Origin: Callorhinchus milii | Taxonomy: Eukaryota | Reading direction: 5' to 3' | Assembly: GCF_018977255.1 (NCBI RefSeq) | Contig: NW_024704759.1 | Location: 7,130,001-7,194,000, forward strand | Length of the DNA: 64,000 bases | Shown here: positions 950 to 63,931 of the stretch, piece after piece | Numbering within the stretch: the first letter of the stretch is position 1 | Layout of the letters: the number at the start of each line of letters is the position of its first letter | Notes under the pieces: generated by a model | What the model was told of the DNA's origin: nothing | Databases searched by the model: none | What the model saw: only the letters and a program-made list of their open reading frames with translations | Program-made: the position numbers and the translations under genes

Positions 950-2100
950 CCGCCACGTGCAGCCCCAGTCGGGGAAGGCGGTTGTTGACAAGTGACCCCC
1001 TCCCCAACCACTCAACCAATCGTCACCGAACTCACGTGACTGACAGCCAGAGCCACTCGCTCGCTGTGGGTGGGGGCTCTTACCCTCTCTCTCTCTCTCT
1101 CACCCCCACCCCACAGTCCCATGACTCTAACCCCTACCCTCTGCTGCTGCTGCTGCTCTCCCCCTCCTCCTCCCCCCCCCCCCCCCCGGGGAGCGGCTCT
1201 TACCCCTGCGCTCCGGCTCGGGGGCGTTAATGAAGCGTTTAAACCTCTCCACCAGCTCCTTGTTCCTCACGCGGCCGCCTCTCTGCACAAGAAAGTCCAC
1301 CAGGGTCTCCTCGGTGAGCGCTGTCGCTGCCGTGGCCGTGGCGGGCCATTGACCCCCTCCGTCCCTCGAGTGAACCGGAGTGACTGACTAACGGTCGGAG
1401 GGAGCGCGCGCCGCCCGCCCGCCCGCTTCAAACTGGCGGCCGCGGCCAGTGCGCAGACTCAGATCATAAGTTCACCCCCACCTCCCCCCCCCACCACCAA
1501 CCGCCATCATCATGGGAGCCAGTCACAGAGTGTGTGGGGGGGGGGGCGGTGTTGGGGGGGGTGTTGGTTGCCAGAGTTTATAAAGTACGGTTCGTAGCTC
1601 CCCCCCCCCAAAGTCCACCTCAGACTAGACCCCCCCCCCCCCCCCACCAAAAAAAAAGTAGCCCCAAAAAGTCGCACGATTGGTCCTTTTCGTCACAACC
1701 CCCCCCCCACCGCCGCCCCACCGCGCCCCCCACCCCGCACGTCGAGCCCGAGGGACGTCCGGAAAGCCCTCGCGCTTCATCCGGGGGATGGCCGCCCCCC
1801 CCCCTCCCCGCGAAGCGAGTCGGATCGCGCGCCTTCGGGGTGGGGGGGGGGGTGGGGGAAGAAAAGCGAGGCGGCCGCACGGAGTCCCGCCAACGGTCGT
1901 GGATCGAAGTGACCGCCGACGACGACAACGCCGACCACGCCGCCGACAACAGCAGCAGCAGCAGCGACAACTTGGATTTATAGACCGCCCCCTCCCCCCC
2001 TCCCCCCCACGCCGGATGGCGTCTCAGAGGGCTTCGCGGTAACGGATACCGGGGCCGAGCCAGGGCGAGGGGGGGGAGGAAGGTGACCAAAGCGCGGCCG
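950..2100 (-). promoter_or_regulatory. CpG island / promoter of the Sowah-like gene
   Basis: Dense CpG; GC-box-like ccgcccgcccgccc near 1411-1425; palindromic tttataaa at 1577-1584; E-box tcacgtga at 1032-1039. Confidence 0.75.
1204..1349 (-). CDS. sowah: First coding exon of an intron-containing Sowah (sosondowah ankyrin-repeat) family gene; remainder lies left of the window; +1 frameshift at 1343-1345
   Basis: Minus frame reads ATATAATALTEETLVDFLVQRGGRVRNKELVERFKRFINAPEPERR, resembling the SOWAHA N-terminus as recalled (..[28 protein letters not shown]..); ends at phase-1 donor G|GTAAG (1203-1199); ATG at 1349-1347 is in frame if one base of the GGG run is removed. Confidence 0.8.
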
Positions 2101-2270
2101 AAAAGAAAGGTCTTCAGCCGAGACCTGATAATAGGAAGACTGGGAGGGAGTGGGGGGGTCACGAGACGAAGGGAGTGAGGAAGGGAGTTCCAGAGCCTTG
2201 GGGCGTTAGAGGCTGAGGGCACGGCCGCCGATGGTGGAGCGGAGGACTCGGGGGACGGGGAGGAGGCAGA
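1970..2270 (-). mobile_element. L2-type LINE 3' fragment
   Basis: Encodes APRLWNSLPHSLR...SRLKTFLF, the typical L2 ORF2 C-terminus; simple-repeat tail near 1920-1970. Confidence 0.75.
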
Positions 2271-2404
2271 GGAGTGGTTGGGATCGGGGGGGGGGGGGGG
2301 TGAAGGGGAGGGGAGGTGTAAGAGGGTGGCCGAAGGTAGGGTCAAACAGGAGGGTCTTGTGACGGGTCCCGAAGGATTATTACTATTGTTAATATTTTTT
2401 GGAG

Positions 2405-3065
2405 GGATTATTATTATTACTCTCAGAAAGCGATCCGCCACTCGACTAACAACCGGGTTCCTACTTGCTGCTCGGTAAACAGAGGCGTGTGGAGTAAGGA
2501 AACTTACCTAAGACTTTGCCCGGCCCGGGACTAGTACTACTGCTGATAATAATAATCTTTGCATTTGATATAGCACCTCATCAAGTTTGTAATAGCTGCA
2601 GTTAATTGTCGTAGAAATAATGAAAAAAAGTAATAATTAATATAAAAGCAATGATTAATATAAATTGGAAATGCACAACAGTTCAACCGGAGCGTATTTA
2701 AATAATAATCCTTGCATTTGATATTTACATCTCAAAGCTCTTCACAAAGTTTCTATCAAGTGTGGTGATGGTACTTGTAGGCAAACCTGACAGCAAATTT
2801 GCACACAGCAACGTCCCACAAACAGCCGTAAAATGAATGACGATTTTTAGTTTGGGGGATTGTTGAACAGGACACTGGGAGAAATGTCTATTTTCAAATA
2901 GCCATCGGATCATTAATGACCACCGGAACAGTAAGACAGGACCTCAGTTTCTGAAGGACAGGACCACTGACAATACGCTGAAGTATCAGGCTGGCCCTCG
3001 ACCATGAGCTCAGAGTCCTGATATGCGGCTTGAACCCACAATCTTCTGACTCAGAGCTGGGCTCA
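2405..3065 (-). mobile_element. tRNA-derived Deu-domain SINE fragments
   Basis: aataatccttgcatttgat tail, gcacacagcaacgtcccacaaacagc core, ttgaacccacaatcttctgactcagag head. Confidence 0.7.
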
Positions 3066-60998: not shown

Positions 60999-62776
60999 TT
61001 AAATCTGGAGTGTCCCAGAGGTGAGAGAATAGATTAGCATTATATGCATTGTACCGCAATAGTCATTGCAAGAGAGAAACATATGAACAAAGTTGTGTGG
61101 TAGGGATAACTTCTATGTGAAAACATTGTTACACGATTCACACAATGATCAGCCTGAAAACATTTTATGAAATACAGAAAGCAATTTATTATATGAAAAA
61201 GTTTCCAACATGAATTCTTATTAAAAAATAATTTAGCTTCAGTTATAACGGTTATATTATCTGAGCTTTACCAAACACTGATGTACTTAAGTCAATTGTT
61301 AACCAAAACTTGGTATTTGCAAGTTCTTCATTCGATGATTGCTGCTGTGGCTAGGAACACTGATGGCAAAAAAGAACAAATCATGAAATCTCAGAAAATA
61401 TTCTCTTCACATATTCACACAGAGGGGTGTGATAATGTGAACCTTCAGAAAAGATTGTAAAGGCAGACTCAATGAAATGTTTAAAAGGATGCTTGAGAAG
61501 TAAGGGTGTGGCGAAAAGGCAGGGATGTAGGATTAAAAGATCTGCCGTTATCTGATGAATTGGCTGTATGGACTCAATGGGCTCAATTATCTCCTTCTAT
61601 TCCTCTGATCCTAATGTGGCAGTTTAATCACCCGTGATATGTACATGAATTTGGCTTATGCTCGAGTCAAAAGTGTTGCTATAAAGGCAAGAAGCACTTG
61701 TTCGGAAGATAATATTGGTATTGGCAGTCCTGACTTATGGACAGAGATGAGTCGTAGGCAAAAGTAAAGGGAAGAGAAATTGGCCAGATTGCATAATTCG
61801 ATAACAAGCGCTAGTTCATTAAAGATTTGGAGGTCCAACTAATCGAGAAAGATTTAATTTAGCTCGTTCCACAAGCTTTTTGCTGGGCAGATTTTGGTTG
61901 CCATCTGTTCACGCTTAGTGTCAACTTTGGCCTGATATTACGATTCTTTAACATGACTGGTTTTCCAACATATTTGTCCATTACACCGGTCAACAGCTGG
62001 AGCTTTGCGTCAGAAAACTGGAACAGACCTGATAAAATATATTGTTCCCGAATAGAAAAAGAAAACTAAGAATAAATACTAAAGTTTGATTAAGACATAA
62101 AATATAGCCGTGGTTGGACTTTTTTAAAAAAAGTTTCCGGTTGGGTATCTTTATGCTGCTCTTGAGCAATGAATGTAAATCCACTTCAAGCTGTGACTTT
62201 CTATAAAGCTCATGAAATTTCACTCAGTATCAGAATAAGCAAAGTATTGCAGTGACAATCACAGTGCATCTTATACACTTGATTAGATTGGCTTCACATT
62301 TATATCTTACCTGGCATTTGTGACATACTATCATTCACACATAAAGAGAGCATTACATATCAATCTAGATTTACACTGTCCAGCAGGCACTTTGATTCAA
62401 CCCGAATAAAGGTTGACACTAATGGAAGAGTTGACATAGTGATGATGGAAGAGTCAACTCATGCATCTATTACAAGTAACACATGCAATTTATAATTAAT
62501 TCTTTAATTTCTTTGCTCATTCAATTTACCTGGTGGTAATGGGGCGGGGGGAAGGGGATAGTGCAGTCCCACCCTAATCCCTTCATTTGAGTAGATTCAC
62601 CATCCAAGGCAAATCTTCAAACAACAAACCGAAGTCCCAGGTAAAATGTGAACACAAAAATTCAGGGATTGCATGTATTGCTTTTGATGTTGAAAGCGTA
62701 ATGGAATATTTGAATTAAACAGAATAAATTAAATACATTCCTTCTTCCAGAGAATTCTGATGCTAAGACGGAGAAT

Positions 62777-62883
62777 TTATTCCTTGCATTTCAACAAATC
62801 GCGGTTGACGTAACCCACAAATTCAATTTGACGATTATGGTTCATCTTCCAGAAAACGCCATTATGCACAAAGTTGTAATACC
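62777..62883 (-). CDS. MMP9: MMP9 last exon
   Basis: YYNFVHNGVFWKMNHNRQIEFVGYVNRDLLKCKE*; acceptor ttctctttcag. Confidence 0.9.
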
Positions 62884-63931
62884 CTGAAAGAGAACGAATT
62901 GGAAAGAATGTTAAGTAACCCGTCTACAAAAGATACACAGTCACTACAATCTGCAGTAAAAGCTGTGAAGCGCTTTGAGTCATTGACGACTCAGGCACTA
63001 AATCAAATGCAAGATTATTATGTACAGTATTACACGTGAACGTTTATCAATTTGCTCTTTCCATTATATTGTATAACATCATTGGAGTCCATCATAGTGT
63101 GTTGATTGTAAGCCCGGAATTCTTTTTGTTACTTGTCTAGAATATGATTCTAGTAGTCAGATCCCATTAATTATTTGATGTCCAAAAGTAATTTGTGCTG
63201 ATGAACTTACCTTTGTGTGTAAAGATATTATTGGCATCAATAGGCACCCCAGCAAAATAGTAATCAATGTAATTGGTGAAGCTCTTCTCAATCGTCTGCG
63301 TCTTCAGGTTGAGTCTGAATCCAAGTTAAAGAAGTTGAATAAGTTAATCTGTTCTGTGCGTAAGTAGCAAGCATGGAATTTAAACAAATATAAATTAAAA
63401 TGTATTAATAAGCATTTATAGAGGCTAAAAATTGAACGTAAATCTACATTTATTTATTTGTTAAGATATTTGGCTGCAGTTGATGGAAAATGGGAAGTTT
63501 TCAGACAGCACTTGGGAATTGAAAGTCAATGGAGGTATTTTAAGGAAGGGTGTTGCAAAGAGCCAGCTTTAGGATGATTTTGCTGAGCACTTTGCTGACA
63601 ACTGGAACAGACTCGGTAGCCCAGTTGCCTCCTATGCTGTATGCTGTTATTGTAAATCAAGGGGGTAAAAGAGATTTCAAACTAGACTGCAGCGATGAAC
63701 ATGTACTGTAGTACGATATATTTATTTGTGTATCTAAGTAATTTTACTTGACAGATAGTCGCCCTCAAACTTACCTCCAAACCTTGGTTCCACCAAACAG
63801 CAAAACTTTATATTTGGCTTTCATAATAGCACCCACTATATGCTTAACATCGTCGCCAATGCCCAGTTTGTAGATGTTCTTGGGATAGCCTTGCTCAAGA
63901 GTCTTGCCAGAGAATATATAGTAAGATTCCC
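62777..63931 (-). CDS. MMP9: Matrix metalloproteinase-9 (gelatinase B), last three coding exons (hemopexin domain); gene continues right of the window
   Basis: Exons 63931-63775, 63314-63211 and 62883-62777 splice in phase; GVPIDANNIF and VGYVNRDLLKCKE* resemble MMP9 GVPLDTHDVF and VGYVTYDILQC; adjacent to ZNF335 as in human 20q13. Confidence 0.9.
63211..63314 (-). CDS. MMP9: MMP9 penultimate exon
   Basis: LNLKTQTIEKSFTNYIDYYFAGVPIDANNIFTHK; 104 nt; donor G|GTAAG. Confidence 0.9.
63775..63931 (-). CDS. MMP9: MMP9 antepenultimate exon
   Basis: ESYYIFSGKTLEQGYPKNIYKLGIGDDVKHIVGAIMKAKYKVLLFGGTKVWR; 157 nt. Confidence 0.9.

What the first reader, a model, noticed from the sequence alone, without database searches (positions are those of the whole stretch)
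1204..63931. Sowah-ZNF335-MMP9 block as a paralog of the Iroquois regulatory landscape
Seen: Sowah-like, ZNF335 and MMP9 in tandem on one strand, with many enhancer-like blocks between and within them. Known: human IRX3/IRX5/IRX6 lie next to MMP2, the paralog of MMP9, and spliced Sowah genes travel with Irx genes. Inference: this is a whole-genome-duplication sister of the Irx clusters that should still hold an Irx gene nearby (possibly Irx7-like, lost in mammals), with ZNF335 and MMP9 as bystanders carrying its enhancers. No Irx sequence is visible in this window.
Basis: inference. Interest (0 to 1): 0.8.

Follow-up and report, generated by a model that had tools for sequence, protein, structure and literature searches.

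The report
Probable eroded third Iroquois-Sowah locus
This elephant-shark region holds three ordinary genes, one of which (a spliced Sowah) hints that a third, eroded copy of the Iroquois developmental gene block lies just outside it, but nothing inside looks like an enhancer-rich landscape.

Summary
The three genes are real and in tandem on the minus strand of Callorhinchus milii DNA: exon 1 of a spliced Sowah (100% to XP_007910542.1), a complete 26-coding-exon ZNF335-type gene (name from recall), and the last three MMP9 exons (identical to V9KAV1). No homeodomain was found in 780 of 780 open segments of 40 aa or more. The 'many enhancer-like blocks' were not confirmed: a third of the non-coding DNA is SINE/LINE repeat, ZNF335 introns are small (median 811 bp), and the spacers are 23 and 4.5 kb. 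Conservation could not be tested, as no vertebrate genomes are reachable here. The Sowah belongs to one orthogroup running from sharks through coelacanth, lungfish and caecilians to teleosts. Its guppy copy is on LG7, by recalled synteny the counterpart of the zebrafish irx7 chromosome. Best reading: the gene-dense flank of an eroded genome-duplication sister of the Irx-Sowah block, with an Irx7-type gene probably left of the window; ZNF335 and MMP9 are neighbours, not enhancer carriers. The kind of system is known (Maeso 2012, not readable here). The fresh lead is a spliced Sowah surviving in caecilians.

The parts
1204..1349 (-). Coding exon 1 of a spliced Sowah gene (start of the SOWAH winged-helix domain); rest of gene lies left of the window. 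The ATG at 1349 is one base out of frame in this assembly relative to the RefSeq protein.
1001..2000 (.). CpG island over the Sowah promoter and exon 1 (GC 0.66-0.68, CpG o/e 0.75-0.85)
168..958 (.). C-rich degenerate tandem repeat in Sowah intron 1
1350..24274 (.). Sowah-ZNF335 spacer including the ZNF335 3' UTR; 26.5% multi-copy repeat; no coding exon found; longest unique stretches 17103-18973 and 19080-21745
13356..14582 (-). LINE fragment with a reverse-transcriptase piece; reference copy of a family with 21 profile hits in the window (self included)
   Evidence: RVT_1 E 1.2e-5; LINE2/CR1-type label from recall
24275..52732 (-). ZNF335-type gene, 26 coding exons, 1268 aa, 13 C2H2 fingers; introns median 811 bp, longest 2873 bp
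   Evidence: gene name recalled
52230..52529 (+). tRNA-headed SINE, reference copy of a family with 16 profile hits in the window (self included)
57900..59000 (-). CpG island: inferred ZNF335 promoter and non-coding exon 1 (donor at about 58144)
   Evidence: transcription start inferred, not shown
62777..63931 (-). Last three coding exons of MMP9 (hemopexin domain)

Best explanation
The window is the gene-dense flank of a third, heavily eroded copy of the ancestral Irx-Sowah block made by the early vertebrate genome duplications, the copy that kept MMP9 while the IrxB copy kept MMP2. Shown: a spliced Sowah, ZNF335 and MMP9 in tandem, no intact Irx in the window, and a Sowah orthogroup spanning jawed vertebrates. 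Inferred: this Sowah is the one that travels with irx7 in teleosts; the Irx2/5- and Irx4/6-type genes that once lay between the Sowah 5' end and the MMP gene were lost with most of their enhancers, which is why this interval is short and repeat-laden; a single Irx1/3-type gene (Irx7) most likely survives left of the window beyond the Sowah 3' end, and any enhancers that keep Sowah linked sit in Sowah introns or next to Irx7. ZNF335 and MMP9 are ordinary neighbours with their own promoters.
For: Spliced Sowah with PF25877 and ankyrin repeats. 102 of 102 named hits among the 120 listed behave as one orthogroup following the species tree; 101 of 102 share the C-terminal motif. Guppy member on a 31,413,364-bp chromosome = LG7; guppy and medaka chromosomes are extensively syntenic; zebrafish irx7 is on chr23; medaka-7/zebrafish-23 correspondence is recalled. 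Sowah-Irx linkage is ancestral in bilaterians and fly Iro-C enhancers lie in sowah introns, with sowah's 5' end facing ara. Catshark has a gene called Irx1l besides Irx3, compatible with an extra Irx1-type gene in cartilaginous fish, though its orthology is not stated. MMP9 confirmed, and one exon scores better against human MMP2 than MMP9, as expected of old paralogs. Window lacks the gene-poor, SINE-poor signature of such blocks.
Against: No Irx gene was seen by any tool; the link to irx7 is chromosome-scale only and one step is recall. One open paper calls irx7 a teleost-specific duplicate. Duplicated regulatory blocks were usually dismantled early and kept in one copy, so Sowah may have survived without Irx. 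No second spliced Sowah paralog was in the listed hits, so the tree has no outgroup and cannot date the duplication (451 of 571 hits were not listed). Human gene order (MMP2 beside IRX6, ZNF335 head-to-head with MMP9) is recalled.
Confidence: 0.6

Rival explanations
1. One reading: the window is inside a live Irx regulatory block, and ZNF335 and MMP9 are bystanders whose introns and flanks carry Irx7 enhancers.
For: Two thirds of the non-coding DNA is unique in the window and untested for conservation; a repeat-poor stretch at 17.1-21.7 kb could hold enhancers. Zebrafish irx7 is listed as a target of conserved non-coding elements.
Against: ZNF335 introns median 811 bp; spacers 22.9 and 4.5 kb against 125-332 kb inside zebrafish Irx clusters; 16 SINE and 21 LINE-family hits spread through the window, whereas such blocks are SINE- and gene-poor; the longest repeat-free gap is not unusual (P = 0.19).
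Confidence: 0.12
2. Fully dismantled copy: the region is a duplication sister of IrxB, but chimaeras have lost or unlinked its Irx gene and Sowah persists for its own protein function.
For: No Irx in 64 kb; Sowah protein is conserved across 102 named records; most duplicate blocks were dismantled; no paper in ten searches reports irx7 in a cartilaginous fish.
Against: Dismantling usually removes the bystander and keeps the regulator, the reverse of this scenario; catshark Irx1l exists; only 1.2 kb of the side where Irx is predicted is visible.
Confidence: 0.2
3. Coincidental neighbourhood: this Sowah reached the ZNF335-MMP9 region by rearrangement, or is the IrxA-linked paralog, and the MMP2/MMP9 parallel is incidental.
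For: MMP9 and ZNF335 are tandem here but head-to-head in human (recall), so the region has been rearranged at least once; no outgroup paralog was available for the tree.
Against: The guppy ortholog sits on LG7, which by recall matches neither IrxA chromosome pair and does match the irx7 chromosome; C. milii has a low rearrangement rate.
Confidence: 0.08

Closest known systems
Iroquois-Sowah genomic regulatory block (Maeso et al. 2012, Genome Res 22:642; Kerner et al. 2009, PMC2674049)
   Same: Intron-containing Sowah gene of the same family (PF25877 plus ankyrin repeats) in a non-tetrapod vertebrate; elephant-shark genome authors are on the 2012 paper.
   Different: No Irx gene in view; the visible flank is gene-dense and repeat-rich. 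The 2012 paper could not be read, so whether it already covers this locus is open; my recall is that it links a spliced Sowah to teleost irx7.
IrxB cluster (FTO-IRX3-IRX5-IRX6-MMP2, human 16q12)
   Same: A gelatinase gene near an Irx/Sowah-type locus (MMP2 position recalled; IRX positions).
   Different: IrxB is a three-gene cluster in a megabase gene desert with FTO as bystander; here Sowah to MMP9 spans 61 kb with ZNF335 between, and Sowah is on the 3' side of MMP9 whereas the IRX genes are 5' of MMP2 (recall), implying a local inversion.
Teleost irx7 (zebrafish chr23:37.8 Mb, unclustered)
   Same: Probable resident Irx of this paralogon; the Sowah ortholog maps to the matching chromosome in guppy (plus recalled synteny).
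   Different: Described in open papers as outside the clusters or teleost-specific; not shown here in C. milii.
Tetrapod intronless SOWAHA-D retrogenes
   Same: Same domain architecture; automatic annotation gives this gene their names.
   Different: This gene is spliced and its orthologs have isoforms with internal indels; no frog or amniote record among the 120 listed hits. Retrogene status of SOWAHA-D is recalled and matches the 2012 title.

Membership tests
Spliced Sowah family | N-terminal SOWAH winged-helix domain plus ankyrin repeats | tested here: met
   Exon 1 is 100% identical to XP_007910542.1, which carries PF25877 and ankyrin families. Direct Pfam scan of the 46-aa exon alone gave no hit.
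Spliced Sowah family | Introns in the coding sequence | tested here: met
   Match to the protein stops at a GT donor at 1203; no further exon in the window.
MMP9 | Orthology to MMP9 rather than MMP2 | tested here: met
   Three exons equal the C-terminus of V9KAV1_CALMI named MMP9; two of three exons hit MMP9 as the only MMP, weakly, one hits MMP2 better. No MMP tree was built.
ZNF335 | Orthology to ZNF335 | tested here: inconclusive
   Architecture (1268 aa, 13 C2H2) and a conserved exon-3 family (38 unnamed hits, 59-97% identity) fit; the name comes from recall, no tool returned it.
Irx-Sowah genomic regulatory block | Irx target gene linked to Sowah | not testable with these tools
Irx-Sowah genomic regulatory block | Dense conserved non-coding elements | not testable with these tools
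   No orthologous DNA available; the CNE supplement of PMC11034925 could not be read.
Irx-Sowah genomic regulatory block | Low gene density, long spacers, large bystander introns | tested here: not met
   Three genes in 64 kb; spacers 22.9 and 4.5 kb; ZNF335 introns median 811 bp against 125-332 kb spacing in zebrafish Irx clusters. Applies to this window only.
Irx-Sowah genomic regulatory block | SINE depletion | tested here: inconclusive
   16 SINE-family hits and 33.6% repeat in non-coding DNA look undepleted, but no genome-wide C. milii baseline was obtained (one search gave none).
Irx-Sowah genomic regulatory block | One contact domain shared by enhancers and the Irx promoter | not testable with these tools
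   Needs Hi-C or 4C.
2R paralog of IrxA/IrxB | Sowah duplication dated to the vertebrate genome duplications | tested here: inconclusive
   Orthogroup spans chimaera to teleosts and caecilians, so it predates the gnathostome split; no paralog or invertebrate outgroup in the tree.

The most novel reading that the evidence does not exclude
Irx7 is not a teleost invention but the last gene of a third duplication-derived Irx cluster, still tied to its spliced Sowah in chimaeras, sharks, coelacanth, lungfish and even caecilians; a tetrapod lineage would then retain the ancestral Irx-Sowah block thought dismantled in tetrapods, and this window marks the grave of the cluster's other two genes.
Probability: 0.3. 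Interest if true: 0.6.

Novelty: new member of a known kind. Interest (0 to 1): 0.33.

Why it matters
If an Irx gene is found left of this Sowah, it dates irx7 to the vertebrate genome duplications, against open papers that call it teleost-specific, and gives a small, readable example of how a duplicated regulatory block erodes: two Irx genes and their desert lost, one Irx and its bystander kept. A spliced ortholog in caecilians would move the loss of this Sowah copy from the tetrapod ancestor to frogs and amniotes separately, or show it was never complete. The general system is already published, so the gain is a correction of gene history, not a new mechanism.

Tried and rejected
Irx search: Pfam on 780 of 780 segments of 40 aa or more and 150 of 481 segments of 30-39 aa, no homeodomain. 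No homeodomain positive control was run; the scan recovered C2H2, hemopexin and RT pieces but missed the Sowah exon and one zinc-finger exon, so a decayed remnant is not excluded. Hidden gene in the 23-kb spacer: a splice-site and codon scorer trained on the window's own exons ranked known exons and repeats at the top and no convincing unique candidate in 2.6-24 kb (training and test overlap, and two of the three MMP9 training junctions were mis-set by a few bases). Repeat-poor gap at 19080-21745 as an enhancer cluster: not significant (P = 0.19 for the largest gap). Rfam: only two tRNA-like SINE heads above threshold. ESM Atlas on two ZNF335 exons: uninformative. Cluster look-up of the Sowah protein could not be made. 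Literature: ten searches found no paper on Sowah-ZNF335-MMP9 synteny or irx7 in a cartilaginous fish; Maeso 2012, Maeso 2013 and the coelacanth genome paper are not held. Supplement searches for neighbouring accessions or irx7 gave nothing useful; several files were too large, cut or not searched, and could bear on the Irx linkage.
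Full report
1. What is in the window. The DNA is Callorhinchus milii: the MMP exon at 63774-63929 is 100% identical to UniProt V9KAV1_CALMI, MMP9, and three exons (63931-63775, 63314-63211, 62883-62777, all AG/GT) spell its C-terminus exactly. At the other end, 1205-1342 (-) is 100% identical over 46 aa to XP_007910542.1, a 425-aa protein with the SOWAH domain PF25877 and ankyrin repeats. The match ends at a GT donor at 1203 and no other exon is in the window, so this is exon 1 of a spliced Sowah running off to the left. 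Its ATG is one base out of frame in this assembly. Between them I built a 26-exon gene, 52732..24275, giving one open frame of 1268 aa with 13 C2H2 fingers and 25 of 25 GT-AG introns, with a CpG island at about 57.9-59 kb. I call it ZNF335 from recalled similarity to the human protein; no tool returned the name.

2. No Irx in the window. Pfam found no homeodomain in 780 of 780 stop-to-stop segments of 40 aa or more, nor in 150 non-repeat segments of 30-39 aa from 1-24300 (331 of 481 in that size class unscanned). Recalled homeobox motifs gave one chance-looking hit. An intact Irx is very unlikely to be missed; a decayed remnant could be, and no homeodomain control was run.

3. The 'enhancer-like blocks'. 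Self-comparison shows 17,373 non-coding bases (29.1%) are multi-copy in the window, against 42, 488 and 441 bases in three shuffles; profile searches raise this to 33.6%, with 16 hits of a tRNA-headed SINE and 21 of a LINE fragment family, self included (RT domain). ZNF335 introns have median 811 bp, maximum 2873 bp, first intron about 5.4 kb. Sowah to ZNF335 is 22.9 kb and ZNF335 to MMP9 4.5 kb. Published regulatory blocks are gene-poor and SINE-poor, and zebrafish Irx clusters have 125-332 kb between genes. The longest repeat-free gap is not unusual (P = 0.19). I have no genome-wide repeat baseline and no orthologous DNA, so conservation itself is untested, but the window does not look like the interior of such a block.

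4. Which Sowah. Searching with the RefSeq protein gave 571 hits, 120 listed. I left out 18 unnamed ones; the 102 named records form one group that follows the species tree (35-row ML tree; all 102): chimaera with sharks and a ray, coelacanth, lungfish and two caecilians, then gar, sturgeons and teleosts. 101 of 102 share the same C-terminal motif. Isoforms differ by internal indels at shared positions, including in the caecilian Geotrypetes, which points to spliced genes. No frog or amniote is among the 120 listed; the other 451 were not seen. There is no outgroup, so the tree shows the gene predates the gnathostome split but cannot date its duplication. The guppy record lies on a 31,413,364-bp chromosome, which is LG7 (31.41 Mb); guppy is extensively syntenic with medaka. 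By recall, medaka 7 corresponds largely to zebrafish 23, where irx7 lies, while the IrxA and IrxB clusters are on 16, 19, 7 and 25. This is chromosome-scale support only.

5. How it most likely came about. Sowah is linked to Irx in most bilaterians, and in the fly the Iro-C enhancers lie in sowah introns, the sowah 5' end facing ara. From recall, human IRX3/5/6 lie 5' of MMP2, and human ZNF335 is head-to-head with MMP9; with that orientation Sowah would lie 5' of MMP9, so the tandem order here implies a local inversion. I infer that the Irx2/5- and Irx4/6-type genes once lay between the Sowah 5' end and the MMP gene, were lost with their enhancers, and that an Irx1/3-type gene, Irx7, survives left of the window. 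Catshark has a gene named Irx1l as well as Irx3, compatible with this but not shown to be Irx7. After genome duplication the regulator is usually kept and the bystander lost, so a surviving spliced Sowah argues for a surviving Irx. Against: no tool showed an Irx here, an open paper calls irx7 teleost-specific, and most duplicate blocks were dismantled.

6. What is known. The Irx-Sowah block and its break-up by retrogenes are the subject of Maeso et al. 2012, co-authored by elephant-shark genome authors. I could not read it; my recall is that it uses elephant-shark data and links a spliced Sowah to teleost irx7, so part of this may be in print. Ten full-text searches found no open paper on this synteny or on irx7 in cartilaginous fish. 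Papers seen: passages of PMC5010895, PMC3342872, PMC5585340, PMC2674049, PMC12649390, PMC12311624, PMC10161429; section 5 and passages of PMC12702339; section 10 and passages of PMC11034925 (supplement unreadable); passages and first part of section 2 of PMC7530604; passages plus supplement searches of PMC3964593, PMC5199103 and PMC8569936 (files partly cut or unsearched); supplement searches only of PMC8455134 (12 of 24 files) and PMC8423624; nothing of Maeso 2012, Maeso 2013 or the coelacanth paper. Unseen supplements could settle the Irx linkage.

7. Verdict. Observation partly confirmed; interpretation partly supported. It works like the flank of an eroded Irx-Sowah block; membership as a live regulatory block is not shown and one tested feature is not met in this window. 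New member of a known kind, interest 0.33. The boldest open reading, an Irx7-Sowah block kept from chimaeras to caecilians, has probability about 0.3 and would deserve 0.6; one look at the scaffold left of this window and at the caecilian locus would decide it.

Noticed in passing
window 1343-1349 (-): The Sowah ATG is one base out of frame with the rest of exon 1 compared with RefSeq XP_007910542.1; no in-frame ATG upstream. Probably a consensus error in a GC-rich region, possibly an allele.
   Followed up: partly
P0008 (Rhinatrema), P0016/P0064/P0116 (Geotrypetes): Caecilians have an ortholog of this Sowah; Geotrypetes isoforms differ by indels at two positions where shark and fish isoforms also vary, which points to a spliced gene. 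No frog or amniote among the 120 listed hits. Linkage to Irx unknown.
   Followed up: partly
window 58145-63931: MMP9 and ZNF335 are tandem here but head-to-head in human, and PCIF1, the human 3' neighbour of ZNF335, was not seen in the spacer (human order recalled): a local inversion in one lineage.
   Followed up: no
window 17103-21745: Longest repeat-poor unique stretch (1.9 kb plus 2.7 kb); best place to look for conserved elements or a long 3' UTR, though not statistically unusual.
   Followed up: partly
window 168-958, 57549-57905, 58767-58911: C-rich degenerate tandem repeats flank both CpG-island promoters (G-rich on the transcribed strand's sense copy).
   Followed up: no
window 3260-3334: A 75-base near-perfect inverted repeat; only sub-threshold miRNA matches in Rfam (E 0.059). 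Could be a tiny transposon or hairpin.
   Followed up: partly
window 52233-52304 and 42453-42519: SINE heads intact enough to pass as tRNA (ARAGORN calls tRNA-Ala CGC).
   Followed up: yes
window 63775-63931: This chimaera MMP9 exon scores better against human MMP2 than human MMP9, keeping a stretch that looks ancestral.
   Followed up: partly
window 51541-51814: A Ser/Thr/Val-rich ZNF335 exon that looks low-complexity is 73-94% identical in the 21 best hits and has no Pfam family.
   Followed up: no
window 28193: The single N of the window, in a ZNF335 intron.
   Followed up: no
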